Source of the DNA: Candidatus Poribacteria bacterium
GTDB lineage: Bacteria > Poribacteria > WGA-4E > WGA-3G
DNA: 64,000 nt
Assembly: GCA_965218285.1 (NCBI GenBank)
Contig: OZ244616.1
Coordinates: 5,635,757 to 5,699,756 of the forward strand
Reading direction: 5' to 3'
Both the position numbers and the translations under genes were made by a program. Below, in pieces: positions 2 to 51,161 of the stretch (position 1 is the stretch's first letter; every line of letters begins with the position of its first letter). The notes under the pieces were generated by a model, which was not told where the DNA came from, searched no databases, and was given only the letters and a program-made list of their open reading frames with translations.

Positions 2-1630
2 TATATTCTCAGAACAGGATTACCAACCATTGACAATTCTGACCTATATGTTGGGCAAATTCAACACAGTTACGGTATTGGAGATGGGCAACGGTTTACC
101 TACGGATTAGATGTGTTGCTCACTCGTCCGGATACTGAAGGCACGATTAATGGTGCTAATGAAGAAAACGACGACATCAACGAGATAGGCGTTTATTTGC
201 AGTCGGAAACCAATATCCTGCCACAGTTAAAGTTGCTTGCTGCAGGTAGAGCGGATAATCATAACCATCTCAACGATATTGTGCTATCACCGAGGGTCGC
301 ACTTGCGTTTCAACCAAACGATGACCATAACATCAGGGTAACCTATAACCGCGCTTTCAATACGCCAGGAACTTCAAACCTATTTCTTGATATTCTGTCA
401 AAAGAAAACCCATTTATGGTAGGAATCGATATACGGGCACAGGGTGTCCCCTCCGAAACGGGATTTACTTTTAAAAGAAGTGTAGATGGTCGACCAGAGT
501 TTCGATCCCCCTTCTCACCCTCAGGTGACAATTTCATCCCGCTTGATAGCCCCGCATTTACCGACGTCATGTGGAACGTTGCCAGAAGTGCTGTGATGAG
601 TGGCGCGAAACCGGTTTTTGAAGCGGGTTTAGCCGCACAAGGACTTCCTGCAGAGACCGTGGCAGCACTCTCCGCAGGATTTGAAAGTATTATCCCGCAA
701 CAAGTAGCAGGTGTGGAAAACGTTTTACGCGCACTTGATCCAGCAACATCAGGCTTTATTGACGTTGAAGATGTAAATGACGTTGACACGCTTAAGCCAA
801 CCATCACGCAGACTTATGAGGTTGGCTACAAGGGGATTATACTGAATAGATTGGTTTTTTCTGCTGATGTGTATCACTCAAGAATTAACAATTTCATCGC
901 TCCGTTGGCAGTCGAAACTCCTAATGTGTTCTTGGACGCTCCAACGTTAAGTGCTTCTCTCGGTCAGCAGATCGGAGCGGCATTAGCCGATCCGCAAAAC
1001 GCACAACTTGCGCAAGCACTGCTTGCGTTAGACGCACCTACTCAGGGTGGAAACGGCGATGGTTCGCCTATTGATGAGTTGGTAACGTTGTTCGTGGCAG
1101 GAACTGCAAACAACGGTGCTGCTTACATCCCATTTGGCACAGTGACACCCGAACAGGCAGCAGACCCAAACGCTGTCATGCTAACCTATCGCAACTACGG
1201 TGACATATCGCTCAACGGATTAGACCTGAATTTCACCTTTTTCCTCAATCCGAGTTGGAGTCTCGGTGCAAATTATTCGTTTGTCAGCAAAGACCTCTTT
1301 GAGAACGTTGATAGAATCGGTGACATTGCCCTAAATGCACCTAAAAACAAGTACGGTGCGAATGTTCAATACATTAACACGGGGCTTGGATTAGGAGTCG
1401 GACTCCGCGCGCGTTATGTGCAAGGATTTCCTGTCCGATCAGGGGTTTATGTCGGCGAAGTCGAATCGTATTGGACGGTTGATCTAACTGCAGGCTACGA
1501 TATTCCACTCGGTCCCAAGCCACGTCTTTCGGTGACTGTCCAAAATCTGCTGGATCGTAAACACCAACAATTTGTCGGAACACCCGAAATTGGTAGGTTG
1601 GCAATTGCACGTTTGACGCAAACTTTTTAA
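2..1630 (+). CDS. TonB-dependent outer-membrane receptor, C-terminal about 540 aa (5' end lies outside window)
   Basis: Frame is open from position 2 with no upstream stop. Sequence shows alternating amphipathic beta-strand character (e.g. RVTYNRAFNTPG, VGLRARYVQGF) and ends with a terminal aromatic residue (..ARLTQTF), as TBDR barrels do. Confidence 0.55.
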   Translation, partial: YILRTGLPTIDNSDLYVGQIQHSYGIGDGQRFTYGLDVLLTRPDTEGTINGANEENDDINEIGVYLQSETNILPQLKLLAAGRADNHNHLNDIVLSPRVALAFQPNDDHNIRVTYNRAFNTPGTSNLFLDILSKENPFMVGIDIRAQGVPSETGFTFKRSVDGRPEFRSPFSPSGDNFIPLDSPAFTDVMWNVARSAVMSGAKPVFEAGLAAQGLPAETVAALSAGFESIIPQQVAGVENVLRALDPATSGFIDVEDVNDVDTLKPTITQTYEVGYKGIILNRLVFSADVYHSRINNFIAPLAVETPNVFLDAPTLSASLGQQIGAALADPQNAQLAQALLALDAPTQGGNGDGSPIDELVTLFVAGTANNGAAYIPFGTVTPEQAADPNAVMLTYRNYGDISLNGLDLNFTFFLNPSWSLGANYSFVSKDLFENVDRIGDIALNAPKNKYGANVQYINTGLGLGVGLRARYVQGFPVRSGVYVGEVESYWTVDLTAGYDIPLGPKPRLSVTVQNLLDRKHQQFVGTPEIGRLAIARLTQTF

Positions 1631-1702
1631 CGCTCTTCCATCAAATCCCCATGCTTTAGCTTGTGGGATGTAGATGGCGCATGATGTGTGTGAAAAATAA
1701 AC

Positions 1703-1732
1703 TTGACAAACGCCCCGAAAATGTAGTATAAT
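1703..1732 (+). promoter_or_regulatory. consensus sigma70-type promoter inside element left end (TTGACA 1703-1708, 18-nt spacer, TATAAT 1727-1732)
   Basis: Read directly. The same hairpin-then-promoter arrangement recurs in every element of this family. Confidence 0.5.
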
Positions 1733-1899
1733 TATAGCAACTTGCTGGATAGGAATACTACCCTGCATACTTATGCAGGTCCTATCCTTACCAGTAGTAT
1801 GGTGTGTGGCAAGTTGCAAGTGAGACCTTGTCCAACATCTATTATTTCGGTGTCGTTCATGTAAGTCGCAAGCGGAGTAATAACCCCGCGCCTTGTATC

Positions 1900-2088
1900 G
1901 GCACCCCCATTTATTATTTTTTGCAGGCTGGGGTGCCCAGGACAAGAATGCCTGATAAAACCGATCTGATTCGGAATAATAGCCTGCTGGTGGAGCGATA
2001 ATAAGACGGTGGACTCTCTGAGAAAACCGCAGTTGCTACGAAGCCGAGGTCTCCCCTACCTTTAGGTAGTGGGTGGTATCACAATATA
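1900..2088 (+). ncRNA. putative TnpB-type omegaRNA (reRNA) scaffold. Boundaries approximate.
   Basis: Homologous to the region downstream of the tnpB remnant at 30420-30608. Ends in the RE hairpin cccctacctttaggtagtggg. Confidence 0.35.
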
Positions 2089-2092
2089 AAGA

Positions 2093-3025: not shown

Positions 3026-3074
3026 TTTTTCTCCTAAAGAATTAAATTACATCAGAATTTTTACACTCTTCCTG

Positions 3075-3468
3075 TCAAATCCCCATGCTTTAGCTTGTGG
3101 GATGTAGACGGCTAAAATCGTTATTTGTCAAAAAACCTTGACATTTTCACTGACACTTGATATACTCTTTTTAGCAGTCGGCATTGGTTCTGATTGATGC
3201 GGTGGTAGACCGCTTGGCAGTGAAACAATCAGGTAAAAGCCTTGCGATTCAATACTGCTAAAGTTCTTTGTAACATCTATTGCACGTTTAGGATAGCACG
3301 TTTGAAAAGACAGCATCCGCTTGAAAATCACGTGTCAAAATAATTAGTTGCCTTCGGGCAAGTGGCTGGCTTAGCAGCCACTGTGGAGCAGACATAAGAC
3401 GCTTCTTCGGAAACGCTGACTGCTACGAAGCACAAGCCCCAGCCTTTAGGCTGTGGGTACTATGACTA
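3075..3468 (+). mobile_element. ORF-less TnpB-family derivative (LE hairpin, promoter, omegaRNA-like RE)
   Basis: Hairpin ccccatgctttagcttgtggg at 3081-3101 plus atgtagacggc. TTGACA(3138-3143)-17-TATACT(3161-3166). 3' end ...agcctttaggctgtgggtactatgac parallels the other right ends. Confidence 0.45.
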
Positions 3469-3962: not shown

Positions 3963-4589
3963 AGACAATGCCCTTCAGTAAAAGCACTTAATTATTAGGA
4001 TGGCGTCGCGTGGTTTGTTGATGAAGTTACGAACCTCGTTACAGGCAACAATCCAGCAAATGTCTACATGTTTATTTGAGATTTTACATTTTACTATAAA
4101 TCGGATCACTTCGTTATTTGAGCAAGTTTCGTGCCAATGTTTCTAAGAATGCGTAATATTGTGTCAGGAAAGATGAAATTCTATGCATATTTTTATCATC
4201 TGTCTTAAACATAGACTCAGACTAAGTTTATCAAGTGAGCGGATATCTTAATTTTTTCGAGAAAAATCACATTAGCGTTCGTTTTCCAACCTTTGCTTTT
4301 TATGGTGTGCAAAAATTGTGGTAGAGTCCTGCATAAATTGCTGCATTATAGTAAGGTCTATAATTATTTACATAATTTGACCTTTGGACAACTTCAAAAC
4401 ACGACTATAAATGTAAGAGGCGCAATGAATTGCGCGACTACAAACGCAGTAAACCCAAAGAAAAGTGTATAGGTATTTTTGGATTTCACTATAAGCAATT
4501 TTGGTAGTGGATATTTGGAAGAAATTTACCATTAGTAGCAGGCGAACGTAGTCATTATTGGAGTGGGTCGAACTGTCCTTATACTGGAC

Positions 4590-5466: not shown

Positions 5467-6594
5467 TTAGTTAAAGACAATAACGCCACGGGCATTTTCA
5501 CCGGCTTCCATATCCGCAAACGCCTCATTAATCTGATCAAGTTGATAATGTTTTGTGATCAGTTCATCTAACTTCAACTTCCCTTCCGTATATAGATTAA
5601 GAAGTTTCGGCATATCCACCCGGGGTTGACATGAACCGTAGAACGAACCGATTATCTGCCTTTCAGATGCGACGAAGTGTTGCGCTGGAATGCTGAATTC
5701 CATTTCATGGTGTGCCATTCCAACAATTACCGCAGTGCCAGCAGCGCGCACCATACGATATGCTTGAACGATAGTTTTCGGATTGCCGATGACTTCAAAA
5801 GCATAATCTACGCCGCGACCATCGGTTAATTCACGAACCGCTTCAATAGGATCACATTCAGCAGCGTTGACGACATCCGTAGCACCAAAACGTTTGGCAA
5901 AGTCAAGTTTTTTCTGAGCAATATCAACAGCGATAATCTTTTCTGCTTGTGCAAGCACAGCACCTTGAATGGCATTTAAACCTACACCGCCGGTTCCAAT
6001 AATCGCTACAGAACTACCGGGTTCCACCTTCGCTGTATTGAGAACTGCACCAACACCTGTTGTCACACCACATCCGACAAGCGCAGCTTGCGCTAACGAA
6101 TAATGATTATCTATTTTGACGAGGTTTTGTTGTGGCACGACCATATATTCCGACATCGTTGCAATCCGTGTCATCTGAAGGATACCCTCACCCGATTTGT
6201 TATATAAGCGATAAGTGCCATCTAATTGAAACCCGCGAGGTACATCGTAACTTTCGCAAAGGCAGACTTTCTCCATCTGACACATGTGGCAATCACCGCA
6301 ATATGTGACGAAGGATAGAATTACATGGTCACCCGGTTGGAAATCTGCTACATCCTCACCTACACGTTCAATTATACCTGCGCCTTCGTGTCCGAGTACG
6401 ACAGCAGCATCGTAGTAGATAGCACCCGTAACGACCGATAGATCAGAGTGGCACACACCACTTGCAGCAGTACGGACAAGGACTTCATTGGCTTTCGGTT
6501 CTTCTAAGTCCAGTTCCTCAACAACCACAGGTTGATTATGTTCATACATAACAGCGGCGCGTGTTTTCATCACTCTTCGGACTGGAGACCCCAT
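5467..6594 (-). CDS. zinc-dependent alcohol dehydrogenase family oxidoreductase. True start probably MKTRAAV near 6570.
   Basis: GHEGAGIIERVGEDV zinc-ADH signature, structural-zinc cysteines (CGDCHMC), GTGGVGL Rossmann motif. The first 8 codons of the listed ORF are supplied by an IS-derived repeat. Confidence 0.75.
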   Translation of the reverse strand: MGSPVRRVMKTRAAVMYEHNQPVVVEELDLEEPKANEVLVRTAASGVCHSDLSVVTGAIYYDAAVVLGHEGAGIIERVGEDVADFQPGDHVILSFVTYCGDCHMCQMEKVCLCESYDVPRGFQLDGTYRLYNKSGEGILQMTRIATMSEYMVVPQQNLVKIDNHYSLAQAALVGCGVTTGVGAVLNTAKVEPGSSVAIIGTGGVGLNAIQGAVLAQAEKIIAVDIAQKKLDFAKRFGATDVVNAAECDPIEAVRELTDGRGVDYAFEVIGNPKTIVQAYRMVRAAGTAVIVGMAHHEMEFSIPAQHFVASERQIIGSFYGSCQPRVDMPKLLNLYTEGKLKLDELITKHYQLDQINEAFADMEAGENARGVIVFN

Positions 6595-6908
6595 CCTTTA
6601 GGTTGGGGAGGAAAGCCCGCTCCTTTTATTTTTGGTATTAGGAGTTTAGTTTCCAATCAAATATAACTGAAAACTAAATCCCTAATATGCACAAACATAA
6701 GTTTGCGTTCTCCCTTTCGGGGTGTCTGTTGCCCCATCCAGATCACAGTATCCGAGAGGAATCGGACTTGGGGAGCATCCGAAACATCGTGCTGGCTACC
6801 ACGCCAAGATACTGCGATATTTTACTGTAGTCAACGGTTTAACTTGTGAAGTGGACGCTCGGATTGCGCTTTGCACAAGCCCCATGCTTTAGCTTGGGGT
6901 TATTGACC
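6568..6908 (-). mobile_element. ORF-less IsrB-type element: RE repeat (6568-6624) plus omegaRNA module (about 6715-6908), with no isrB gene
   Basis: 6568-6624 matches 14918-14973 (catcactcttcgg.ctggagaccccatcctttaggttggggaggaaagcccgctcc). 6722-6908 aligns almost base-for-base with 16000-16190, the region between the IsrB start codon and the LE terminus ...ccccatgctttagcttggggttattgac. Confidence 0.55.
6715..6908 (-). ncRNA. orphan IscB/IsrB-type omegaRNA scaffold copy
   Basis: Near-identity to the 5' UTR module of the intact isrB at 15977-16190. Confidence 0.4.
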
Positions 6909-6963
6909 ACTAACCGATGATATTAACCTGTATATTTTCGTGCAATGCTGTGCATTTCACTTC

Positions 6964-8055
6964 TTATACGGTTTGCAAGTTACTCATAGATAGTAACCAG
7001 GGTTCATCTACCAAAGCACGCAGGAATATCCCGCGTGCGCCATTCAAGTCTCTGTTCATCTTGAGTCCTGTGCTATCTTTGATTATCTTTCGTCCGCCGA
7101 GTGATTTTCTAATCTCACCATTCCAAGAAACTGTTTTTGATGTGTATGCTTCACAGACATCAACTACAATACATCCAGTTTCTTCTGCTTTATGTTTTAG
7201 AAATTGTTTGAATCTGTAGTGAGATAGTGTCAACATTTGTCTTGCAGACTTTTTTCGTAGTTTGCGTTTTCCACGCATCACCATATCTGAAGTCTCAAAT
7301 GTGGGGAGCAAGATAATATCAAAGTTATCAACAAGGTATCGTGCAACTTTATGGTGCAATTCATCAACAAGATTTCTGATACGTGTGCGTATTCTGTTTG
7401 CAGCACGTCTCATATTCTTGCGTGATTGTTGAGTCGCTTTTGTTGCATGGGATAAAAGATTATCAAGGTGTGAACAAAGTCTTTGAATCCGATTAATAGC
7501 ATGGTGTCCAAGCCATCCGAAACCACGCTCATGAAAATATGTGAGGAATGTTCTCACGCCAAGGTCTAAAGCAACAACACGTCCGTTTGACTTTCGCTTC
7601 GGAGTTGTCACAGTATAAGATACACATAGATAGTATTTATCATTCTCTTTTACCAGTCGGGAGTCACAGATATTATCAGGTAACATCTCTGACATCTTTA
7701 GCTCACCAAGTAAGGTATGATAGACACCGCGTGGTTTTATAGCAGACTTTGGAATGAAAATACTATCTGATGGATGACGTTTAGACTTGAAAGAAACAGA
7801 TTGAAACTCACCTGTTTTCTTACATTTTCGCTTTGCTTCTCTGACAGCAATAGACTTTATCTGATACGGAGTTTCTTTGCTCCAATCAGGTAGATCGTGA
7901 AGAATGCCTGTTTTTATCGCTTTCCAATTTGCTTTTGTGTCTGTTTCGTTCAACAAAGCAACGGTTTTATCGAGTTTCGGTGTCAAAACCCAATGCTTTA
8001 GCTTTGGGATGTAGACACCGCCCTCTTGTATTAGACCAAAACTTTTTCTTGACAT
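6964..8055 (-). CDS. tnpB: TnpB-like RuvC-fold nuclease (IS200/IS605/IS607 accessory protein). N-terminus probably disrupted; the annotated first ~25 codons run through another element's left end.
   Basis: RuvC-I VVALDLGVRTF, RuvC-II LLPTFETSDM, C-terminal ..CEAYTSKT..NRDLNGARGIF (RuvC-III D.N.A..I motif) with a degenerate zinc finger. The -35 box of an opposite-strand promoter overlaps the annotated ATG. Confidence 0.65.
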   Translation of the reverse strand: MSRKSFGLIQEGGVYIPKLKHWVLTPKLDKTVALLNETDTKANWKAIKTGILHDLPDWSKETPYQIKSIAVREAKRKCKKTGEFQSVSFKSKRHPSDSIFIPKSAIKPRGVYHTLLGELKMSEMLPDNICDSRLVKENDKYYLCVSYTVTTPKRKSNGRVVALDLGVRTFLTYFHERGFGWLGHHAINRIQRLCSHLDNLLSHATKATQQSRKNMRRAANRIRTRIRNLVDELHHKVARYLVDNFDIILLPTFETSDMVMRGKRKLRKKSARQMLTLSHYRFKQFLKHKAEETGCIVVDVCEAYTSKTVSWNGEIRKSLGGRKIIKDSTGLKMNRDLNGARGIFLRALVDEPWLLSMSNLQTV

Positions 8056-8411
8056 AAAACACGATTCTTGCTATAATCTCTTTTCGTAACTCCACGGGTT
8101 GTGAGCAGGCGTTCTGGGTGCTACATACCGAGTGAACTCACGTAAAGTTGCGACACAAGCGGTAGAAGTCTTTGACACCAGATAGTTGCTGATGGAAGCT
8201 TAGAGTGTAATGGGAAAGAGTGGTAGGACACCATCCCGAAAACAGCACTCTCAAAAATGTTCATAAGACACCTTCGGGTGTGCAGGCGGGGCATCGTCTG
8301 TTGGAGTAGAGGGTGTTAGACTTGCTTAGCAAGCAACCCTTGTTGATACCACAATCTACACAGCAGGTGGGACAAAAGAACCCCACTGCTTTAGCTGTGG
8401 GAGTATGTCAG
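7983..8411 (+). mobile_element. plus-strand ORF-less TnpB-family derivative lying between the tnpB body and its N-terminal fragment
   Basis: LE hairpin cccaatgctttagctttggg (7995-8014) plus atgtagacacc. TTGACA(8049-8054)-17-TATAAT(8072-8077). RE hairpin ccccactgctttagctgtggg (8388-8408) plus agtatgtcag, as at 63502-63530. Confidence 0.4.
8049..8077 (+). promoter_or_regulatory. consensus sigma70 promoter (TTGACA-17-TATAAT) on the plus strand
   Basis: Read directly. Confidence 0.45.
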
Positions 8412-8530
8412 TGTAAGTGAAACGTGCAGTGCCCAACCACTGCCGAAGTGTTTCACGTTGTTCTGTTGTCGGATAGACTCTTATCTTCTTTGATTTTGTC
8501 ACGGTAACTTCTGAGCCCGTGCATCCGGCA
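8356..8530 (-). pseudogene. tnpB: tnpB N-terminal fragment (..KKIRVYPTTEQRETLRQWLGTARFTYTD..) directly downstream of tnpA. Same frame as the 6964-8055 body, but separated from it by about 300 bp containing a stop.
   Basis: Canonical TnpB N-terminus pattern (Y.FRLYPT.EQ...L....G.ARFVYN). The listed ORF 8356-8967 ends inside hairpin 8388-8408. Confidence 0.45.
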
Positions 8531-9040
8531 ACTGAAGACATGCAAGATTGCGAGAAGATCCGCTGTGAGTTCTTCTTGTGGACTGTGTTCTGTTTTGTCC
8601 AAAACCACGAGTTCGCCACCGTTTTGTTCAATAAGGTATCGTATAAGGTCGATACCGAAGCGGGCGAGTCTATCCCAATGGGCAATAACAACTTGGAGCT
8701 TATCACCTCGCATAAGCCGTTCCAATAAGGTTCTAAGACCTTTTCTTTTGAAGTTGATACCACTTCCGATGTCTCTGATAACTGCTGCGTCGGGGTAGAT
8801 GCTTCGCATATACGCAACTTGTCGTTCAAGGTCATCTCTTTGCTTTGTGCTGGATACTCTGCAGTAGCAAACAGTTGTAATTGATTTGGATTTGCTTTTG
8901 ATGTATCCTTCAACATCATAGCGTCTGTGTCCGCCTCCTGTGCGGATAATATCAATCTTTCCTTCATTTGCTAACTTCCTTAAATGGTCGGGTGTATAAT
9001 CCAGCAGTTCACTTGCTTTACGGGCTGATACATAAGTCAT
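8453..9040 (-). CDS. tnpA: IS607-family serine recombinase TnpA (MerR-like HTH plus resolvase catalytic domain)
   Basis: N-terminal HTH (ASELLDYTPDHLRKLANEGKI). Catalytic-serine motif YCRVSSTKQ. tnpB starts overlapping its 3' end, as in IS607. Confidence 0.75.
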   Translation of the reverse strand: MTYVSARKASELLDYTPDHLRKLANEGKIDIIRTGGGHRRYDVEGYIKSKSKSITTVCYCRVSSTKQRDDLERQVAYMRSIYPDAAVIRDIGSGINFKRKGLRTLLERLMRGDKLQVVIAHWDRLARFGIDLIRYLIEQNGGELVVLDKTEHSPQEELTADLLAILHVFSCRMHGLRSYRDKIKEDKSLSDNRTT

Positions 9041-9099
9041 ACTATATTATAATATATATCAATAGAAATGTAAAGAAAAATATAGATTTTTAGATACTG

Positions 9100-9999
9100 T
9101 TACTCAACCTCTTTAAGCAATGCCTGTGTTTGCCGATTGGATGTTTTGAAGTACGTCGCTAAGGTTTGTTGTAATTTATCAAGTTGATGACGGTCACTTT
9201 CAAGAGAGTTAATTCGCTTTTCATAACTTTCTAAGTTGGTGAGACGTTCAAAGATATCTTGTAGTAGGTTTTCCAATTCGCGGTAGCGCACCTGCTCTTC
9301 TTCCAATAATTCCATTTTCTCTGCCATTAAGGTGAGCGTTTTCTTAGTCTTGTCCAACTCAGTCTGAAGCGTTCGTGTAAAAACGATTAATTTCTCCAGC
9401 GTATTAGTCGTTTTATAGACCGGTACCTCTGGATCCGTAGGAGGGAAACTTTTGGGGATAACATGGACATCATCTTTTTCTGGAATATCTTCTGAATTAT
9501 CTTCAGTTAAATCTATATCAGTTTTTTGGGGAATACCAAGTTCTGGATTTGGTGGAGTAACAGGTTGAATTTCAAAGACACCTAACAATTTGATATTATA
9601 TGTAGATGGAATATAGTTCTCTTTACGCTCAGTATAAGATATTTGGACACGAAGTTCCTGAGTAATCTTCAGAGAATTCAGACGGGTATGGATATTTCGG
9701 ATCGCAACCTCATTATACCCGAATGCTTGATTCGATTTCGGAGTTAACTGCCGGAGATAACGGTAGAGTTCCATCACATCAGAACTTTCCCGCGAGATAC
9801 CCTCTTTCGTTAAAATTCCGACTATGTCTTCATCTTCAGGATTTGTGGATGTTTGCAAACTCGGTATGACAATGTCCAGAGGCACTTCGCCTTGAATTGC
9901 CTTCATCCCAAGAGTCCAACTGTTCTCTGAAAGTCTACCGCTGAAGGCGATAAAGTCGTAACTTATTGTCATTGTTTTTTCAACCTTATCTTTTTTCAA
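9100..9999 (-). CDS. hypothetical protein with an acidic Pro-rich middle region and a C-terminal coiled coil
   Basis: Long ORF with no recognisable catalytic motifs. C-terminal heptad-like E/L/K-rich segment. Confidence 0.4.
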   Translation of the reverse strand: MKKDKVEKTMTISYDFIAFSGRLSENSWTLGMKAIQGEVPLDIVIPSLQTSTNPEDEDIVGILTKEGISRESSDVMELYRYLRQLTPKSNQAFGYNEVAIRNIHTRLNSLKITQELRVQISYTERKENYIPSTYNIKLLGVFEIQPVTPPNPELGIPQKTDIDLTEDNSEDIPEKDDVHVIPKSFPPTDPEVPVYKTTNTLEKLIVFTRTLQTELDKTKKTLTLMAEKMELLEEEQVRYRELENLLQDIFERLTNLESYEKRINSLESDRHQLDKLQQTLATYFKTSNRQTQALLKEVE

Positions 10000-10095: not shown

Positions 10096-10320
10096 CATTC
10101 ATCACTCTTCGGGCTGGAGACCTTATCCTTTAGGTTGGGGAGGAAAGCCCGCCTCCTTTTGTTAATAAGTGCAGGTGATTTAATCTTGCACCTGCTACGA
10201 GATGTCTGTGTTGGGTATCGCCCAGACGACGCGACCTGTAGTCAACTGTTTAACTTGTGGAGTGGACGCTTGGTATGCGCTTCGCACAAGCCCCATGCTT
10301 TAGTTTGGGGTTATTGACTC
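10096..10320 (-). mobile_element. truncated ORF-less IsrB-type element (RE repeat plus about 85 nt of the omegaRNA 5' region plus LE terminus)
   Basis: 10096-10150 matches the RE repeat. 10237-10318 matches 16105-16190 (ctgtagt.caac.gtttaacttgtggagtg.acgcttggtatgcgcttcgcacaagccccatgctttag.ttggggttattgac). Confidence 0.5.
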
Positions 10321-10740
10321 TAATCCTTCTAACGCCTTTTGAATAATTTCACTATGATCAAAGGCAAGTTGTGGCAAGCCTGATGTTGAAAACCATGCAA
10401 CTTCCGAGGCATCGGAGCCCGCTACGGTTTTCTGTTGTTCCGATTTAATGATTCCAACGTAGGCGACGGTGATAACACGTCCACGTGGATCACGGTCAGG
10501 ATGTCCAAATGTCCCTATCTGTGTCAATTGCACTTCAGATATACCTGTTTCCTCATGCAACTCGCGAAGAGCACTCTCCTTAAGAGTTTCATCCATTTCC
10601 AGAAACCCACCTGGCAATGCCCACAAGTCTTTGAAAGGTGGATTCTTACGACGAATTAATAAGACTTGTGGATGCAGTGCATCCATCAATAGTACAACAT
10701 CAACAGTAACTGAGGGACGTGGATAATCATAACAATACAC
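10300..10740 (-). CDS. NUDIX hydrolase
   Basis: Nudix box GG.LE..E....A..REL.EETGI (ALPGGFLEMDETLKESALRELHEETGI). The last 5 codons and the stop are supplied by the terminus of the adjacent IS-derived element. Confidence 0.75.
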   Translation of the reverse strand: MYCYDYPRPSVTVDVVLLMDALHPQVLLIRRKNPPFKDLWALPGGFLEMDETLKESALRELHEETGISEVQLTQIGTFGHPDRDPRGRVITVAYVGIIKSEQQKTVAGSDASEVAWFSTSGLPQLAFDHSEIIQKALEGLESITPN

Positions 10741-12162: not shown

Positions 12163-13404
12163 TTAATCATGGCGAAGTGCTTCGGTTGGGGTGAGACTTG
12201 CAGCTTTGTTTGCGGGATAGATACCGAAAAATACGCCGATGAACGCTGAAACACAGAACGCGATAACAGCTGCCTGAACAGATACAACTGCAGGCCAAGT
12301 TGCATCTTTAATCATGAATGTTGAGATGACCCAACCTGATCCGGTAGCAAGCGCACTGCCAATAAAAATACCGATAAGACCCCCACAAATGCTTAAGACA
12401 ATTGATTCAATCAGAAATTGTATAAGGATGTCGGCACGTCTTGCCCCGATAGATTTGCGTAACCCGATTTCTCGGGTTCTCTCTGTTACGGAAACCAACA
12501 TGATATTCATAATACCGATCCCACCGACAAATAGGGCAATACTGGCAACTGCACCGAGAAGAATCTGAATTATCCGACTTACACTGCCAACCTGCTTTAT
12601 TATCTCCTTGGCCGTAAAAAAATCAAAATATTTTTCATCACCGTGTTGTTGGCGAAAGGCGACTTTGATTTCAGCGACAGCTTGCTCAACTTTATCATAA
12701 CTCTCTGCTTGTGCAAACAGCATGATCCAGCCTTTCTGCTTGCCGATAAAACGCGCCCCCATTGTGGTGATCGGTATAATCACACGATTATCCCACCCCT
12801 CACTTGCCATCTTATTGCCTTTTGCCTCCATGACTCCGATGACGGTGAACCGTTCTCTGTCAATTTTTAACTCCCTACCAATAGGATCATCCATCTGAAA
12901 TAGGTCTTTATGCACTTCAGAACCGATCAAACAGATAGGGTCATCCCGTCCCATGTCTTCTTCGGTAAAAAACCTTCCTGAATCAACATACCAGTTATTG
13001 ACATCTTGAAAATAGGGTGTCACGCCATGCACTTGAAGCGATTGATTAACATGTCTGTGTGATACGCGGCGCACCATGCGAGATTGCGCGGTAGCTGTTT
13101 TAAGAGAGGGGCACATTTTAAGTATAAAGGCGAGGTCTTGATACTCAATATATTCCGGATGCTTATTTTTTATATAAGAACCATCTGTTCTACGAATATG
13201 TTCCTTACGGAAGCAGACGATCATGCCTGCGCCACCGACCCGTTCCAGTTCAATCAGTACTAGGTGTTCGGCACCACCGCCGACTGAAACTACAGCGACA
13301 ACAGCCGCAATGCCGATGATGATTCCAAGTGTTGTAAGCACGGAACGTAATTTGTTACGTCTTAGTGCTGCTAAGCCAACGCTAATGCCTTGCGTAATCT
13401 GCAT
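12163..13404 (-). CDS. ABC transporter permease, MacB/FtsX family
   Basis: N-terminal TM helix plus periplasmic MacB_PCD-like domain. C-terminal FtsX 3-TM bundle (..GIGIMNIMLVSVTERTREIGLRKSIGA..). Confidence 0.7.
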   Translation of the reverse strand: MQITQGISVGLAALRRNKLRSVLTTLGIIIGIAAVVAVVSVGGGAEHLVLIELERVGGAGMIVCFRKEHIRRTDGSYIKNKHPEYIEYQDLAFILKMCPSLKTATAQSRMVRRVSHRHVNQSLQVHGVTPYFQDVNNWYVDSGRFFTEEDMGRDDPICLIGSEVHKDLFQMDDPIGRELKIDRERFTVIGVMEAKGNKMASEGWDNRVIIPITTMGARFIGKQKGWIMLFAQAESYDKVEQAVAEIKVAFRQQHGDEKYFDFFTAKEIIKQVGSVSRIIQILLGAVASIALFVGGIGIMNIMLVSVTERTREIGLRKSIGARRADILIQFLIESIVLSICGGLIGIFIGSALATGSGWVISTFMIKDATWPAVVSVQAAVIAFCVSAFIGVFFGIYPANKAASLTPTEALRHD

Positions 13405-13433
13405 AGTTTTCTAAGTTATCGTAACAGGTAATG

Positions 13434-14597
13434 TTACTCAGGTTTCATGGACTCTCCGCTTAATAGAAATGCACGGATGTCATACCTACCAGGACGTTCA
13501 ATCGGCAAATCACCGCTCTCAATCATTAAATCGAGGGGGTTTGCATGTGTCCGCAACGGCAATTGCACCACTTCATGCATACGCGCGGATTCATAGATCG
13601 CCATGATAATCTCAATAGCGGCGCGACCGTGTTTTGCTTCTCCCCGGTGTTCTGGACCGCCAGCAAACCATTCGACTAATTCCTTTGCTTGGGCAACGTG
13701 CTGGTTAGTTCCATCAGAGGGACGTTCTTCCCAATCCGTAGATTTATTGTTGAGGAGACGAACACGTCCCTCTGTCACATCTACAATTCCATCTGCCCCA
13801 TAGACAATGCCACCTTGATAGTTAGGTCTTCCGATCTCTTGCATTAGCATGCCGAGGCACCCGTTCGAAAAACCTACTATTCCAGCACTCCGATCCTCAA
13901 TCTGAATATCGCGTTCGAAACGATCCGTTTTGCGTTCAACATTGCCAATAACCCACTGAGGAGCAGGGTCACTGAGCACATATCGCATCATATCAAAGAG
14001 ATGTGAGCAGTCATTCAACAATCCTTGTCCACCGTGACAAACTATCTGTCTTGGCTCACCAATTGCCCCATCAGCGATGAGATTGCGTGCATCTGTCCAA
14101 GCGGAATTAAAACGACGTTGATGTCCAATCACAAGCTTGACACTATTTCGGCTTGCAGCGATTAACATCTCATCGCACTCACCGAGATTCACCCCCATCG
14201 GTTTTTCACATAGGATTACTTTCGGTCCCCTTGAACACGCTGCAATTGTCATCGGTGCATGAAGTTTGTGCCACGTTGCGATGCTGACAATATCAAGATT
14301 TTCGTTACCTAACATCTCCCGTGCATCCAAATAGCAGTTTTGCTCGGATACGCCGTAGGTGTTTGCAAACTTGTCAAGCGCAGCTTGAACGGGGTCTGCA
14401 AGCGCAACAATTTCTGTTTGTTCAACACCCTGATAGCCACGTGCATGTGCATTGGCAATCCCACCACACCCAATGATTCCGACCCGATATTTTGACGCCA
14501 TTTTCTTCTCCATATCTCCGATTAGTGATTTTTGGCTCATGTCAAGACTAAGTGCGGAGGCTTCTAGAGAATCCAAGTGTACAGCGAGTTTATTCAA
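13434..14597 (-). CDS. Gfo/Idh/MocA family oxidoreductase. Start probably near MASKYRVGIIG.
   Basis: GIIGCGGIANAH Rossmann motif, CEKPMG motif. Confidence 0.7.
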   Translation of the reverse strand: MNKLAVHLDSLEASALSLDMSQKSLIGDMEKKMASKYRVGIIGCGGIANAHARGYQGVEQTEIVALADPVQAALDKFANTYGVSEQNCYLDAREMLGNENLDIVSIATWHKLHAPMTIAACSRGPKVILCEKPMGVNLGECDEMLIAASRNSVKLVIGHQRRFNSAWTDARNLIADGAIGEPRQIVCHGGQGLLNDCSHLFDMMRYVLSDPAPQWVIGNVERKTDRFERDIQIEDRSAGIVGFSNGCLGMLMQEIGRPNYQGGIVYGADGIVDVTEGRVRLLNNKSTDWEERPSDGTNQHVAQAKELVEWFAGGPEHRGEAKHGRAAIEIIMAIYESARMHEVVQLPLRTHANPLDLMIESGDLPIERPGRYDIRAFLLSGESMKPE

Positions 14598-14947
14598 ATA
14601 AAACGCACTTACTTTTTACATGAGCCTGATTTTTTACTATAGACTTATTATTCTTCGGCACACAACGTATGCATGCTAATCGTTATAGAAAACCCACAAT
14701 CATTCTTATGATGTGGTAGATGCCGAATTCTAAAAGCGTATCTGCTGTTAATTCACCACGCGTTTCCCTACCGAATAATCTATTCGTGTAACGTTTCTTC
14801 AAAGACTTCAAGGTTTTGTGCCTGAGCTGCATCGAGGAGCAGCTGTTCCAGGCGTTGCAAATCTTCTATGTTTTGAAGTGCCGGTGTTAAGGCATTCACG
14901 GCTTCTACATGGAATTTCATCACTCTTCGGGCTGGAGACCCCATCCT

Positions 14948-15976
14948 TTAGGTTGGGGAGGAAAGCCCGCTCCTATAGTTAAAATTCAGACGCGTAAGAA
15001 CTTTGAAATCCTGTCGTTTCGCGCCTGTGGTGATTCGTTTCCCATCCAAACTGTAGATAGAAAACAAACCTTTTGCGTTAATACCTGAAAGTCTTGTTAA
15101 TCCGTGTTTGACATGCTTCACCAAAGTGTTCTTGACCAAGCCTTGTGCTAATATGGTGCCACCATATCGCGAACGAATGCCGTTCTTTTGTGGGTTCTGC
15201 CGATGAAGTTCACGTCTTGAAACAGGTATCGGTGCGATGCAGAATATATCTGTGTTGTCGGGGACATCCACCCCACCGACAGTGTGATATGCCAAACACC
15301 AACTATCTACACAGTGTGCATCAAACGTCTCTGTGAGTTTCTTGAAAGACTTCTTGAGTCCAAGTCTATCTCGAAGTTCTTTCGTCTCCCAACCTTGAAG
15401 TGTGAACAATGTCCATCGCTTTTGTATCTCACTATAGAACCAAGACTTTCCGACTTCAAGAGGACTGAAAGAACTATTCCACTTTTTCGCACGTTTGATA
15501 GTCCTTGCTCTAATATCCTCTACACAGACATGTGTGACAGGATACATATTAGACAACCAATCCAAAATACGCAGTTTCCAATCCCATCTCGCACGCGTGC
15601 CAGCCGGTATCCTTTCTTTATTAGCAGGGTGCCGATTAGTTCGGTTCTTTCGGTTTGGACACGAACGACTCCGACGGGTTCTCCGAAGTTCGCGACGCTT
15701 TTCTATTTTTTTACCCACTTTGCTATGTGCATCAGTTTGAACATTCAAATACGTGTGTGCCTCAGACTTCACCGTGAACCCTTCTTTCTTGCTGCCAGGG
15801 TCTACACCTACAGCAATCTCTTGTTTGTATTCTGTTGTTTCGTAGTTTAATCGAATACAGAAGATACCATTATTCCAATACGGGGTCGCCTTACCACTTT
15901 TGATAAGGTGCCTCGCAACTGGCGGAGAAGTGGGCATCAGTTGTTCACCATCCTTAGATTTCACTGGAACGAACAT
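14948..15976 (-). CDS. isrB: IsrB: RNA-guided RuvC nuclease/nickase of the IscB family lacking the HNH insert (342 aa)
   Basis: N-terminal PLMP domain (KSKDGEQLMPTSPPVARHLIKSGKA). RuvC-I AVGVDPGSKKEGFTV. Arg-rich bridge helix KRRELRRTRRSRS. RuvC-II CVEDIRARTIKRA. RuvC-III DAHCVDSWCLAY. No HNH/Cys4 segment. Size typical of IsrB. Confidence 0.7.
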   Translation of the reverse strand: MFVPVKSKDGEQLMPTSPPVARHLIKSGKATPYWNNGIFCIRLNYETTEYKQEIAVGVDPGSKKEGFTVKSEAHTYLNVQTDAHSKVGKKIEKRRELRRTRRSRSCPNRKNRTNRHPANKERIPAGTRARWDWKLRILDWLSNMYPVTHVCVEDIRARTIKRAKKWNSSFSPLEVGKSWFYSEIQKRWTLFTLQGWETKELRDRLGLKKSFKKLTETFDAHCVDSWCLAYHTVGGVDVPDNTDIFCIAPIPVSRRELHRQNPQKNGIRSRYGGTILAQGLVKNTLVKHVKHGLTRLSGINAKGLFSIYSLDGKRITTGAKRQDFKVLTRLNFNYRSGLSSPT

Positions 15977-16190
15977 GTCGTTAGAACTCCTTTTCAGGGT
16001 ATGTGTTTCCCCATCCAGATCACAGTATCCGAGAGGGATCGGACTTGGGGGGCATCCGAAACATCGTGCTGGCTACCACGCCAAGATACCACGATATATT
16101 ACTGTAGTACAACGGTTTAACTTGTGGAGTGAACGCTTGGTATGCGCTTCGCACAAGCCCCATGCTTTAGCTTGGGGTTATTGACCTTCA
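15977..16190 (-). ncRNA. IsrB omegaRNA (5' of isrB, same strand). Guide segment expected immediately beyond 16190.
   Basis: About 215-nt conserved structured module between the LE terminus and the start codon. Copied without the ORF at 6715-6908, 10237-10320 and 30635-30800. Confidence 0.5.
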
Positions 16191-16411
16191 ATAATGTTAA
16201 GATGGACTTAATCGTAGCATCCCTCGCCCCTTGGGTGATGAATTCTTCGCGTAGAAGTTGGTAATATTTAGATTCACGCATAAACTCCTCCGGTATGATG
16301 GTGCTTCGGAAGAACTCCCTATATCCTCTGATAAGGAGGATATAGGGGGTTGGAAACTGATAAAGGGTCTATGACCAACGATCCGACAATTCTATAGTTT
16401 CGAATTTGAAA

Positions 16412-29644: not shown

Positions 29645-29884
29645 CGGTAGCGAAACCATAGGCGTCAATTTAAGGAAAGAACTCGTTTGTAGTCGCGCAC
29701 TTCATAGTGCCTCGGACATTCAAAGAAAAGAGGCGCTATGAATTGCGCGACTACGAACGCTGATATTCTCGTCCTTTGCGTTATTTGAGATGTTGATACA
29801 AAAAGGTGCGGTTAGGAAACCGCACCTACCGGGTTGGGAACCGCTAAATTGACGCTTATGGTGCGGTTAGGAAACCGCACCTAC
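29645..29884. mobile_element. MITE of the ggtgcggtt-palindrome TIR family (type 2 interior with a 29-bp-stem hairpin). Left TIR truncated.
   Basis: Shares ataggcgtcaatttaaggaaagaactcgtttgtagtcgcgca...gaggcgctatgaattgcgcgactacgaacgctgatattctcgtcctttgcg with the units at 45412-46524. Right end has two copies of ggtgcggttaggaaaccgcacc. Confidence 0.5.
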
Positions 29885-29939
29885 CAGGTGTGTTCATATA
29901 TTAATTTTGGCTATATATTATTAACGTGTGTGACAAAAT

Positions 29940-30608: not shown

Positions 30609-30634
30609 TAGAATATGATATAATTACCACTAAA

Positions 30635-31052
30635 GTCAATAACCCCGCGCTAAAGCATCGGGGCTTGTGCGAAGCGCATGCCAAGCGTCCACTCCACAAG
30701 TTAAACGGTTGACTAGACGATATATCGCGGGTCTTGTCGTGGCAGGAAACCACAAGATGTTACGGATGCTCCCCAAGTCTGTATCCGCTCTGATCCCGTG
30801 ATGTCGATGGGGAAACATATACCGCGAGAGCGTGGGCTTATAGCCATTATTTTCTGGTAAAGACATCGTGTCAGGTCAAGTAAGCGAGTAGTGACAGTCT
30901 CACTGAACGAAGCAGCACAACTGAATCCAGACTCCCAGTGTGCAGGTGGAGATAAAACAGCACTCCCCCTTTTGGGGACAAATTATAACTATAATAGGAG
31001 CGGGCTTTCCTCCCCTGCCTAAAGGCGAGGGGTCTCCAGCCCGAAGATTTTG
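30635..31052 (+). mobile_element. ORF-less IsrB-type element in plus orientation (LE/omegaRNA module at 30635-30800, RE repeat at about 30995-31052)
   Basis: Reverse complement of 30635-30800 aligns to 16020-16190. Reverse complement of 30997-31048 matches the RE repeat (ggagcgggctttcctcccc..cctaaagg..ggggtctccagcccgaag). Confidence 0.5.
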
Positions 31053-32294
31053 ATGAACTGCGGTCGGGAGAAATATATGAGTAGCAGTCCTGCTTATAAT
31101 CTGTTAGCTGAAACGTTAGAAAAACACGGAATTCAGGTTGAGGCAGTTAAGGCACACCTCAAACAACAACATATTGAAACACCATCATGGGGTTACGGTA
31201 ATTCTGGCACCCGATTCGGCGTGTTTGAGCAACCCGGTTTAGCAAGGAACGCTGCCGAACGTTTGGAAGATGCCGCCACCGTGCACCGATTCACTGGTGT
31301 TGCACCTACCGTCGCGCTTCACATTCCATGGGACAAAACTGATGACTGGGGCGCATTGAAACAATACGCCGCAGATGTCGGCATCGGTATCGGTGCGATT
31401 AACCCGAACGTCTTTCAAGACCAAGTGTACAAACTCGGTAGCGTCTGCAATCCGAATGCAGAAATACGCCGTCTTGCAATTGATCACATGTTAGAATGTG
31501 TTGACATCATGGAGAAAACGAGGTCAGATTTACTCAGTTTATGGTTTGCCGATGGCACTAACTTTCCTGGGCAAGCCAACTTCAGAAAACGTAAGCAGTG
31601 GATGACAGAAGCGTTAGGTGAAGTGTACGATGCACTTCCTGATGCCACCCGCATGTTGATTGAATATAAGTTCTTTGAACCGGCATTCTATCATACCGAT
31701 TTAGCGGATTGGGGTACTGCTTACCTTATGGCAACAAAACTGGGTCCGAAAGCACAAGTCCTCGTTGATCTCGGTCATCATCCGCAAGGCACCAATATTG
31801 AATTTATCGTTGCATATCTAATTGACGAAGGTAAACTTGGCGGATTCCACTTCAACTGTCGAAAATACGCAGACGATGATCTGACCGTAGGGTCTATTAA
31901 TCCACAAGAACTCTTCCTAATCTATACTGAACTTGTTGCCGCAGAACTTGATCCTGAAACAGAAACCGACATCGCTTATATGATTGACCAGAGTCATAAT
32001 TTGAAACCGAAGGTTGAAGCGAGCATCCAATCGGTTTGCAATCTGCAAAAAGCTTATGCAAAGGCACTGTTAGTTGACCGCGATGCATTGGCAGAAGCAC
32101 AAGATGCAGCAGACTTGGTTGAAGCAGAGAGCATCTTACAACGCGCCTATGAAACAGATGTTAATCCACTACTTGAGCAGGTACGTTTGGAGATAGGGCG
32201 GGACCCGCACCCGCTGACAGCGTATCGGAAAAGCGGATATTATGAGAAAATTAGTAAAGCACGCGTCGGTGGCGAGAGTCAAGGCTGGGCATGA
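31050..32294 (+). CDS. xylose-isomerase-like TIM-barrel sugar isomerase, probable L-rhamnose isomerase (P. stutzeri type). Likely true start MSSSPAY at 31078.
   Basis: About 410 aa. Motifs [14 protein letters not shown] and ALHIPWDK recalled from L-RhI-type enzymes. Metal-binding His/Asp/Glu pattern (DLGHH, DQSH). Confidence 0.45.
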
Positions 32295-51130: not shown

Positions 51131-51161
51131 TATGTTAATGTAGGATTGTAAAGTACCGGTA

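What the first reader, a model, noticed from the sequence alone, without database searches (positions are those of the whole stretch)
6568..6908. ORF-less copies of the IsrB element that keep both termini and the omegaRNA scaffold (6568-6908, 10096-10320, 30635-31052)
Three loci share the RE repeat and the LE/omegaRNA module of the intact isrB element but have no coding sequence between them. Their element lengths are 340, 225 and 418 bp, against 1273 bp for the intact copy.

Each has a different sequence beyond the ..ttattgac terminus. If transcribed, each would therefore present a different guide to an IsrB protein supplied in trans from 14948-15976.

This looks like a natural, transposon-generated library of guide RNAs for a single effector. 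Equally, these may be non-autonomous elements that depend on a TnpA encoded elsewhere.
Basis: seen in the sequence. Interest (0 to 1): 0.65.

Follow-up and report, generated by a model that had tools for sequence, protein, structure and literature searches.

The report
Gene-less IsrB transposon copies carrying guide RNAs
Three short, gene-less offshoots of an IsrB transposon are real mobile elements in a sponge-symbiont (Poribacteria) genome; two keep the complete guide-RNA scaffold, a kind of element already described for related transposons.

Summary
The window holds one intact IsrB element (14921-16185) and three ORF-less relatives: 6571-6907, 10103-10318 and 30635-31052. All share both hairpin-bearing ends and have different flanks.

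One claim fails. Copies 1 and 3 keep the whole ~212-nt omegaRNA, with 42-43 of 43 consensus pairs. Copy 2 keeps only the first ~85 nt.

These are not one-off deletions. They belong to three families (~340, ~420 and ~220 bp). Each family recurs nearly unchanged at other sites in a related complete Poribacteria genome, which holds at least 14 ORF-less and 4 intact copies among the loci recovered.

Close strains lack copies 1 and 2. One gives an empty site for copy 2: ...GGATTAGA|ATGA, with no target duplication.

All copies insert next to TTCAT (ATGA on the RNA strand). This matches published IscB/IsrB target-adjacent motifs. Each guide is simply the flanking sequence, so it matches that copy's own vacated site.

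Best reading: these are non-autonomous IS200/IS605 "PATE" elements. Two of the three can probably borrow IsrB in trans for retention. Such elements are already described, so this is a new member of a known kind.

A side result: ORF-less copies often sit exactly at host start codons.

The parts
6571..6907 (-). ORF-less element, family A (337 bp): omegaRNA, then a remnant of the RBS and first 3 codons of isrB, ~85 bp of filler, and the left-end hairpin module
   Evidence: blastn. Family alignment with 5 near-identical copies from OZ250160.1. Absent from strain L054.
6696..6907 (-). Complete omegaRNA scaffold of copy 1
   Evidence: Covariance model R1 scores 249.9 bits over model positions 1-212. 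43 of 43 consensus pairs are kept. Sub-threshold Rfam HEARO match, 30.5 bits.
6908..6927 (-). Flank that would form the 5' guide of copy 1 (GTTAATATCATCGGTTAGTG). It lies just downstream of a TnpB gene's stop codon.
   Evidence: Sequence. TnpB Pfam hits for 6964-8055. No viral match.
6567..6570 (-). Target-adjacent motif ATGA (TCAT on +). Its ATG is the start codon of the Zn-alcohol dehydrogenase gene 5467-6570.
   Evidence: 116 of the 120 listed orthologues are 367 aa, the length read from this ATG, and the five orthologous loci read begin MKTRAAV at it. Homology with strain L054 breaks exactly here.
10103..10318 (-). ORF-less element, family C (216 bp): only the 5' ~85 nt of the omegaRNA, ~75 bp of unrelated sequence with a hairpin, and the left-end module
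   Evidence: R1 scores 101.8 bits with a large internal deletion. Absent from L052 and L054.
10319..10338 (-). Flank-derived guide of copy 2 (AAGGCGTTAGAAGGATTAGA), which is the 3' end of the NUDIX gene
   Evidence: Exact match followed by ATGA at the empty site in L052.
10099..10102 (-). Target-adjacent motif ATGA of copy 2
   Evidence: Empty-site comparison with L052.
14921..16185 (-). Intact IsrB element (1265 bp)
   Evidence: The same element is present in strain L052.
14948..15976 (-). isrB gene, 342 aa, with no HNH domain detected
   Evidence: Pfam RRXRR PF14239, E = 3.7e-30, is the only hit. PDB 8DMB DtIsrB, E = 1.4e-36, with the aligned motifs DPG, VED and H..D conserved.
15974..16185 (-). 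omegaRNA of the intact element
   Evidence: R1 scores 235 bits. The RNAalifold structure has 43 pairs, 19 with compensatory changes.
30635..31052 (+). ORF-less element, family B (418 bp): complete omegaRNA, ~160 bp of unrelated internal sequence, and the left-end module
   Evidence: Family alignment with 6 copies from OZ250160.1.
30635..30848 (+). Complete omegaRNA scaffold of copy 3
   Evidence: R1 scores 206 bits. 42 of 43 pairs are kept, several through family-specific compensatory changes.
30615..30634 (+). Flank-derived guide of copy 3 (ATGATATAATTACCACTAAA). It is the short spacer to a neighbouring unrelated ORF-less element.
   Evidence: No viral match.
31053..31056 (+). Target-adjacent motif ATGA of copy 3. 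It opens a 413-codon ORF for a xylose-isomerase-like TIM-barrel protein.

Best explanation
The three loci are non-autonomous, ORF-less derivatives of an IsrB-type IS200/IS605 insertion sequence. They are palindrome-associated transposable elements (PATEs).

Mobility:
- Each keeps the two subterminal imperfect hairpins on the same strand. A Y1 transposase (TnpA) encoded elsewhere would recognise these hairpins on single-stranded DNA.
- They move by peel-and-paste, inserting 3' of TTCAT without target duplication.

Guide RNA:
- The TnpA-defined right end lies inside the 5' end of the omegaRNA gene, so any derivative must keep at least that part.
- Families A and B (copies 1 and 3) keep the entire scaffold.
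- Transcription entering from the flank would join the adjacent ~20 nt to the scaffold as a guide.
- IsrB from an intact copy, such as 14948-15976, could load this RNA.
- The resulting complex matches only the vacated site: flank followed by ATGA. The occupied site reads flank followed by GTCA, so it is spared.
- Nicking of the vacated site would promote recombinational restoration of the element.

On this reading, families A and B free-ride on both TnpA and IsrB. Family C (copy 2) has lost the scaffold and free-rides on TnpA only.

Shown here: anatomy, family structure, mobility, target motif, intact RNA structure, and the guide-to-empty-site match.

Inferred, not shown: transcription, IsrB loading in trans, and nick-driven retention.
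For: Ends and target:
- Both ends carry CCCCAT(G/C)CTTTAG(C/G)TTGGGG hairpins on the + strand. One is preceded by TTCAT plus 18 nt and the other is followed by TTATTGAC.
- This is the IS608-like geometry, recalled from knowledge of IS200/IS605.

Families:
- A 19-nt omegaRNA word finds 51 loci, about 44 of them in Candidatus Poribacteria genomes.
- Elements fall into a full-length class (~1265-1275 bp with isrB) and three ORF-less classes of ~343, ~415-423 and ~221 bp. Copies within each ORF-less class align along their whole length at different sites: the ~343 and ~420 bp classes nearly unchanged, the ~221 bp class closely only between the window copy and L037.
- Among the loci recovered from genome OZ250160.1, 4 are intact and at least 14 are ORF-less.

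Mobility:
- Strain L052 is ~98.5% identical and syntenic. It reads GGATTAGA|ATGA where the window has GGATTAGA|element|ATGA.
- Strain L054 is 97% identical. It has no copy upstream of the alcohol dehydrogenase gene or in the rhaM segment next to copy 2's TAM-side end; its contig does not reach the NUDIX junction. Homology breaks exactly at 6570 and 10103.

Target motif:
- ATGA or a close variant (GTGA, ATAA) follows 34 of the 35 elements read.
- All four window copies have TTCAT, the motif reported for G. stearothermophilus IscB and its IS (PMC10055086). It also fits the NTGA motif of DtIsrB (PMC9581776).

RNA:
- The consensus structure has 43 pairs, 19 of them with compensatory changes.
- Families A and B keep 98-100% of the pairs. 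These include family-specific double changes such as G38A/C61U in family A.
- Rfam HEARO matches all four loci on the right strand, starting at model position 1, though below threshold.

Effector:
- IsrB is intact and is identical in a second strain.

Guide specificity:
- Copy 2's guide matches the L052 empty site plus ATGA exactly.

Precedent:
- PATEs that encode omegaRNAs needing a nuclease in trans are described in PMC10055086.
- Standalone omegaRNAs working with IscB are cited in PMC9581776.
Against: - No TnpA gene was found in the window or in ~480 kb of related loci. The transposase is therefore inferred.
- No promoter-like site above chance lies upstream of the guides, and there are no expression data.
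- Family C is mobile without the scaffold. Keeping the omegaRNA is therefore not needed for spread and could be incidental in families A and B.
- Copies within a family are too similar (at least 97%) to test for selection on the RNA after the ORF was lost.
- Restorative homing has been shown for TnpB and IscB, which make double-strand breaks. To my knowledge it has not been shown for the nickase IsrB.
- Family B's omegaRNA is only 82% identical to that of the intact copy, so compatibility with this IsrB is uncertain.
Confidence: 0.7

Rival explanations
1. These are plain PATEs or MITEs. The omegaRNA sequence survives only because the transposase-recognised right end lies inside it and the deletion endpoints happened to fall downstream. 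The RNAs are not used by IsrB.
For: - Family C keeps only ~85 nt of the omegaRNA, yet is polymorphic between strains and recurs in two other genomes.
- No promoter signal or expression evidence was found.
- Within-family divergence is too low to show purifying selection.
Against: - Two independent families both keep the scaffold complete up to the ribosome-binding site, and lose the ORF just after.
- Both keep 98-100% of the pairs, including family-specific compensatory changes.
- Scaffold-complete families have 13 copies in OZ250160.1 against 1 for family C. That is the pattern expected if the scaffold aids retention.
Confidence: 0.22
2. This is a host-domesticated library of guide RNAs. It would direct one IsrB to many different targets for defence or gene regulation.
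For: - Each copy has a different upstream flank.
- ORF-less copies outnumber intact ones.
- Many copies sit at the 5' ends of host genes.
Against: - The guides are just the insertion-site flanks. Copy 2's guide is the 3' end of the NUDIX gene.
- The only TAM-flanked match to any guide is the copy's own empty site.
- The three guides have no exact match in the viral collection.
- The loci are not conserved between strains that are 97-98.5% identical. That fits selfish mobility, not a fixed host function.
- IsrB is catalytically intact, so it is not a dead repressor.
Confidence: 0.04
3. The copies are an assembly or duplication artefact.
For: None was found. The region is repeat-rich.
Against: - The flanks differ on both sides.
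- The three copies differ from each other in length and content.
- The same families occur in independently assembled genomes.
Confidence: 0.01

Closest known systems
PATEs (palindrome-associated transposable elements) of the IS200/IS605 superfamily that encode omegaRNAs, as noted for Geobacillus stearothermophilus (Meers et al., PMC10055086)
   Same: - They have no coding capacity.
- They keep both hairpin ends of a parent IS.
- They need TnpA in trans.
- They carry an omegaRNA that would need a nuclease encoded by another element.
- The TAM is shared by transposase and nuclease. It is TTCAT here, as for ISGst5 IscB.
   Different: - The parent here encodes IsrB, a nickase without HNH, rather than TnpB or IscB.
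- The host is Candidatus Poribacteria.
- Three distinct derivative families coexist, one of them with a truncated scaffold.
- ORF-less copies are enriched at host start codons.
Standalone (trans) omegaRNAs functioning with IscB (Altae-Tran et al. 2021, cited in PMC9581776 and PMC11610941; the original paper is not held)
   Same: An omegaRNA scaffold is encoded away from any effector gene. Its guide comes from the sequence 5' of the scaffold.
   Different: Activity with the effector was shown experimentally there, but only inferred here. The transposon ends and the mobility of the ORF-less units are documented here.
DtIsrB-omegaRNA (PDB 8DMB; Hirano et al., PMC9581776)
   Same: - The protein is homologous (E = 1.4e-36), with the RuvC motifs and no HNH domain.
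- The guide is 5' of the scaffold and the TAM lies 3' of the target.
- The TAM is NTGA or TTGA there, against ATGA here.
   Different: - The omegaRNA upstream of the ORF is ~212 nt here, against 284 nt for DtIsrB.
- The pseudoknots were not tested here.
- The RNA sequence resembles the Rfam HEARO model only weakly.
HEARO RNA (Rfam RF02033)
   Same: - All four loci match on the correct strand, starting at model position 1 (GUCAA...).
- They share the first hairpin and the GGGGCUUG motif.
   Different: Scores are 25.6-30.5 bits, against a gathering score of 83. By Rfam's criterion these are not family members.

Membership tests
IS200/IS605 PATE (non-autonomous derivative) | Subterminal imperfect palindromes at both ends on the same strand, with no terminal inverted repeats | tested here: met
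   The hairpins CCCCATCCTTTAGGTTGGGG and CCCCATGCTTTAGCTTGGGG both lie on the + strand, 18 nt and 8 nt from the termini.
IS200/IS605 PATE (non-autonomous derivative) | Insertion 3' of a short specific target, without target-site duplication | tested here: met
   The empty site in L052 is GGATTAGA|ATGA. The occupied site is GGATTAGA|element|ATGA. ATGA/TTCAT or a close variant lies next to 34 of the 35 elements read.
IS200/IS605 PATE (non-autonomous derivative) | No protein-coding gene inside the element | tested here: met
   Only spurious ORFs of at most 76 aa are present. tblastn with IsrB finds no hit in any ORF-less locus.
IS200/IS605 PATE (non-autonomous derivative) | Multi-copy, with evidence of transposition as the short unit | tested here: met
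   Three families recur at different sites, with copies aligning end to end. Copies are present or absent between strains.
IS200/IS605 PATE (non-autonomous derivative) | A cognate Y1 (HUH) transposase TnpA in the same genome | tested here: inconclusive
   None was found in the window ORFs scanned or in ~480 kb of related loci. The whole genome could not be searched.
IsrB (OMEGA nickase) | PLMP and split RuvC domains with a bridge helix, no HNH domain, ~350 aa | tested here: met
   The protein is 342 aa. Pfam RRXRR is the only hit. It aligns to DtIsrB 8DMB over residues 3-316, with the DPG, VED and H..D motifs conserved.
IsrB (OMEGA nickase) | omegaRNA encoded upstream of the ORF, abutting a transposon end, with conserved structure | tested here: met
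   A 212-nt region with 43 consensus pairs, 19 of them covarying.
IsrB (OMEGA nickase) | RNA-guided, TAM-dependent nicking activity | not testable with these tools
   This needs biochemistry.
HEARO RNA (Rfam RF02033) | Score at or above the Rfam gathering threshold (83 bits) | tested here: not met
   There are no hits in gathering mode. E-value mode gives 25.6-30.5 bits.
Functional standalone omegaRNA | Complete scaffold, including the long-range stem and 3' hairpins | tested here: met
   Met for copy 1 (43 of 43 pairs) and copy 3 (42 of 43 pairs). Not met for copy 2, which keeps only ~85 nt.
Functional standalone omegaRNA | Transcribed together with its upstream guide and bound by the effector | not testable with these tools
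   No RNA-seq is available. Promoter scans are at chance level.

The most novel reading that the evidence does not exclude
ORF-less omegaRNA elements are hyperparasites of the IsrB retention system, and they persist preferentially at host start codons. A host promoter then transcribes the native 5' UTR as the guide, fused to the scaffold. The start codon itself (ATGA) serves as the target-adjacent motif. Retention of a copy would then depend on expression of the host gene it sits in front of, linking transposon persistence to host transcription.
Probability: 0.2. Interest if true: 0.6.

Novelty: new member of a known kind. Interest (0 to 1): 0.38.

Why it matters
This is a clean natural example of how the OMEGA guide-RNA module can be separated from its nuclease gene. 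The parent element, two scaffold-complete offshoots and one scaffold-truncated offshoot sit side by side, and empty sites are available in sister strains.

That set is a ready-made comparison for testing whether an omegaRNA in trans helps a gene-less element persist. It would also test whether a nickase (IsrB) can support restorative homing at all.

The data also show how heavily these elements remodel Poribacteria genomes. Deletions abut the copies, and many insertions lie exactly at start codons.

The finding does not reveal a new type of system.

Tried and rejected
- Rfam in gathering mode found nothing. Only sub-threshold HEARO hits appeared in E-value mode.
- Exact-protein look-ups of window genes found nothing on record: ADH with two different starts, the methyltransferase, the TIM-barrel protein and the 224-aa protein. 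The window's own genome is therefore not in those collections. Orthologous loci were reached through a homologue search instead.
- The TnpA search used a motif regex and tblastn with IS608 and IS200 TnpA sequences recalled from memory. It gave only one weak fragment in L003 (E = 0.024) with no open frame.
- I looked for conserved RNA structure in the 160-bp internal filler of family B and found no convincing covariation.
- I tested whether the other ORF-less elements in the window (1624-2090, 3058-3465, 7970-8352, 30052-30625) carry the same omegaRNA. The covariance model matches only their hairpins, at 23 bits or less, and blastn finds no relatives in the fetched loci.
- Three guide sequences were searched in viral contigs, with zero matches.
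- Altae-Tran 2021 and Weinberg 2009 are not held in the library. They are cited only through papers that quote them.
- The metagenome scan was not used.
Full report
**1. What is in the sequence**

The intact element runs from 14921 to 16185.
- On the + strand it begins just after TTCAT, with CACTCTTCGGGCTGGAGA followed by the hairpin CCCCATCCTTTAGGTTGGGG.
- It ends with the hairpin CCCCATGCTTTAGCTTGGGG followed by TTATTGAC.
- On the - strand it encodes a 342-aa protein (14948-15976). Its only Pfam hit is RRXRR (PF14239, E = 3.7e-30), with no HNH domain.
- The protein aligns to the solved IsrB of Desulfovirgula thermocuniculi (8DMB, E = 1.4e-36). The DPG, VED and H..D RuvC motifs are conserved.
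- The 209 nt between the ORF's start codon and the terminus are the omegaRNA region; covariance model R1 (212 positions) matches 15974-16185.

blastn of this element against the window finds both end modules at three further places, with no coding part between them:

| Copy | Coordinates | Strand of omegaRNA | Length |
|---|---|---|---|
| 1 | 6571-6907 | - | 337 bp |
| 2 | 10103-10318 | - | 216 bp |
| 3 | 30635-31052 | + (inverted) | 418 bp |

- The hairpin motif occurs 14 times in the window, against 0 expected.
- A covariance model built from 19 related omegaRNAs, scanned with filters off, finds exactly four strong matches: 250, 235, 206 and 102 bits. The next best hit scores 23 bits.
- The observation therefore holds, with one correction. 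Copy 2 shares only the first ~85 nt of the omegaRNA, and the rest is unrelated sequence.
- Each short copy also carries 70-160 bp of internal sequence with no blastn match to the intact neighbour.

**2. Which organism, and how many copies**

A 19-nt word from the omegaRNA, scanned across one genome per species, gives 51 loci. About 44 of them are in Candidatus Poribacteria genomes, which are sponge symbionts. Twenty-one lie in the complete 5.9-Mb genome OZ250160.1. The window itself is not among these loci.

Pairing end modules in each locus sorts the elements into four classes:
- full-length copies of ~1265-1275 bp with isrB;
- family A, ~343 bp;
- family B, ~415-423 bp;
- family C, ~221 bp.

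Within families A and B the copies are nearly identical along their whole length, including the internal filler, yet they sit at different genomic sites. In family C the window copy and L037 are close, and L032 from another genome is more divergent. The short forms have therefore transposed as short forms. They are not independent decay products. Among the loci recovered from OZ250160.1, 4 are intact and at least 14 are ORF-less (5-6 of family A, 7 of family B, 1 of family C).

**3. Mobility and exact boundaries**

Strain L052:
- The IsrB protein is encoded identically on a 6.18-Mb contig from another assembly (L052). That contig is ~98.5% identical to window 12163-17038 and syntenic with it.
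- L052 lacks copy 2. It reads ...GGCGTTAGAAGGATTAGA|ATGA|..., where the window reads ...GGATTAGA|GTCAAT...GAAGAGTG|ATGA|....
- This fixes both termini. It also shows insertion next to ATGA (TCAT on the transposase strand) with no target duplication.

Strain L054:
- Its alcohol dehydrogenase is 99% identical in protein and 97% in DNA.
- It keeps the ancestral gene order rhaM, 303-aa gene, AP_endonuc_2, ADH, methyltransferase, FGE-sulfatase. Related contigs L055 and L056 place NUDIX upstream of rhaM. L054 has no element.
- Homology with the window breaks exactly at 6570, the ADH start codon, and at 10103.

Other points:
- 116 of the 120 listed ADH orthologues are 367 aa, the length read from the ATG at 6568-6570, and the five orthologous loci read begin MKTRAAV at that ATG. 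It is therefore the true start, and it is also the target-adjacent motif of copy 1.
- Relative to L054, the window has lost the AP_endonuc_2 gene and the 5' part of rhaM, both next to elements.
- L052 has a full-length IsrB element at the rhaM-internal ATGA, which is where copy 2's TAM-side end lies.
- I infer that recombination between co-oriented elements caused these deletions.

**4. Target motif and guides**

- ATGA, or a close variant such as GTGA or ATAA, follows the element on the RNA strand in 34 of the 35 elements read.
- The four window copies all have TTCAT on the opposite strand.
- TTCAT is the motif reported for both the transposase target and the IscB nuclease of ISGst5 (PMC10055086).
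- NTGA or TTGA is the motif of DtIsrB (PMC9581776).
[quoted passage not shown] This agrees with the geometry here: isrB is antisense to the strand carrying the TnpA-type left and right ends.

The 20 nt upstream of each GTCAAT terminus differ between copies. After scarless excision, this flank would be followed by ATGA, which makes a valid target. In the occupied state it is followed by GTCA, which does not.

In silico results:
- Copy 2's guide matches the L052 empty site plus ATGA exactly.
- No other guide has a TAM-flanked second-site match in ~490 kb.
- The three window guides have no exact match in viral contigs.

**5. Is the RNA intact in the short copies?**

- RNAalifold on 12 full-length and 7 ORF-less omegaRNAs gives 43 pairs, 19 of them with compensatory changes.
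- Families A and B keep 42-43 of the 43 pairs, as well as the intact copies do.
- Family A has its own double change, G38A with C61U.
- Family B has compensatory changes in the long-range stem and in the terminal hairpin.
- Family A ends its homology just after the ribosome-binding site and the third isrB codon. Family B ends just after the last hairpin.
- Family C lacks everything beyond the first two hairpins. By the mutational data on DtIsrB, where the pseudoknots are essential, it should not support IsrB.
- Rfam's HEARO model matches all four loci on the right strand from position 1, but far below threshold: 25.6-30.5 bits against 83.

**6. Mechanism**

The best-supported reading is that these are PATE-type non-autonomous IS200/IS605 elements moved by a TnpA encoded elsewhere. 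Families A and B probably also exploit IsrB in trans to restore themselves after excision.

| Status | Steps |
|---|---|
| Shown | Ends, target, no duplication, family spread, strain polymorphism, intact structure, guide-to-empty-site match, intact effector gene |
| Inferred | TnpA (none found in the sequence available), transcription, IsrB loading, nick-driven restoration |

On transcription: the promoter-like sites are at chance level. Copy 2 lies downstream of the NUDIX gene, whose promoter-like site scores 11 of 12. Copy 3 is preceded by a TATAAT that lies too close to yield a full guide.

The main rival is that scaffold retention is incidental. Mobile family C supports this. Against it stand the independent, complete retention in two families and their greater copy number.

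A domesticated guide library is not supported, and an assembly artefact is excluded.

**7. Comparison with what is known**

- Meers et al. describe PATE-like elements in G. stearothermophilus. [quoted passage not shown]
- Hirano et al. cite standalone omegaRNAs that function with IscB.
- The present case is therefore a new member of a known kind. It is IsrB-type, in Poribacteria, with three coexisting derivative families.

**8. Side result**

I reconstructed each insertion site. In 11 of 34 elements, the element lies exactly 5' of an ATG that opens an ORF of at least 150 codons, with an in-frame stop within 40 codons upstream. The figure for control ATGA sites is 5.4% (p about 1e-6).
- The count is 10 of 18 for ORF-less copies and 1 of 16 for full-length copies.
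- Several sites show the original ribosome-binding site left behind in the guide flank, for example aaaggagggcataaa|element|ATGAAACAT in L030.
- Part of this is expected, because ATGAA is a common gene start and intragenic insertions would be selected against.
- The ORF-less versus full-length contrast is confounded by genome of origin.
- The result is still compatible with dependence on host promoters for guide transcription.

Noticed in passing
window 1624-2090, 3058-3465, 7970-8352, 30052-30625 (+ strand): A second kind of ORF-less IS200/IS605-like element is present.
- The left end lies after TTTAA or TTTAC, with the hairpin CCCCATGCTTTAGCTTGTGG.
- Next comes a sigma70-like promoter pointing inward, for example TTGACT-17-TATGAT at 30134-30162.
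- Two of the four copies (1624-2090 and 30052-30625) share a 167-bp conserved segment near the right end.
- In three of the four the right end is a hairpin followed by ..ACCACAAT/..ATCACAAT; 3058-3465 instead ends with an IsrB-type right end (hairpin + GTACTATGAC).

These may be TnpB-type guide-RNA units with their own promoter. The IsrB omegaRNA model does not match them.
   Followed up: partly
34 insertion sites in the window and loci L001-L051: ORF-less IsrB-type elements are strongly enriched exactly between the ribosome-binding site and the start codon of host genes. The count is 10 of 18, against 1 of 16 for full-length elements and 5.4% for control ATGA sites. The displaced ribosome-binding site ends up in the would-be guide.
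   Followed up: partly
window 6909-9100 and 10099-10103, compared with L054 and L052: Next to copies 1 and 2 the window has lost the AP_endonuc_2 gene and ~200 bp of rhaM relative to a 97%-identical strain. L052 carries a full-length IsrB element at the rhaM-internal ATGA that bounds copy 2. This suggests deletions by recombination between elements.
   Followed up: partly
window 6964-8055 (-) and 8356-8967 (-): A TnpB gene (Pfam OrfB_IS605 plus the Cas12f1-like TNB domain) lies at 6964-8055. A separate HTH_OrfB_IS605 fragment lies upstream, and the two are apparently split by the nested small element 7970-8352. Copy 1's guide flank begins 37 bp beyond this TnpB gene's stop codon (guide 6908-6927, stop at 6964).
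   Followed up: partly
window 10300-10318: Insertion of copy 2 at the NUDIX stop codon (the TGA within ATGA) extends the predicted NUDIX protein by 5 residues read from the element: ..ALEGLE* becomes ..ALEGLESITPN*.
   Followed up: yes
window 38996-39747: A tandem array of a 40-bp unit has 18.7 copies with 95% matches. It lies in an intergenic region and its function is unknown.
   Followed up: no
window 45412-46411; also 29655-29885, 41537-41933, 51155-51500: Tandem arrays of 236-bp and 169-bp units have dispersed relatives elsewhere in the window. They carry GC-rich hairpins that give weak Rfam ncS025 hits (37.6 bits against a threshold of 46). Related pieces also occur in strain L052, where the window instead has a GFO/IDH/MocA gene.
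   Followed up: no
window 16412-25378 (-) and 25497-28205 (-): A 2988-aa protein is built of 318/369-bp repeats and ends in a dockerin domain. The next gene encodes a 902-aa protein with a cohesin domain and a T9SS sorting domain. This is a possible cohesin-dockerin surface pair in a Poribacteria genome.
   Followed up: no
L040 2505-4319 (OZ250160.1): A family-A-like element is 1815 bp long instead of ~343 bp. Its omegaRNA and left end are intact, it has no IsrB homology inside, and there is a weak second omegaRNA-model hit at 4086-4190. It probably carries a nested insertion.
   Followed up: no
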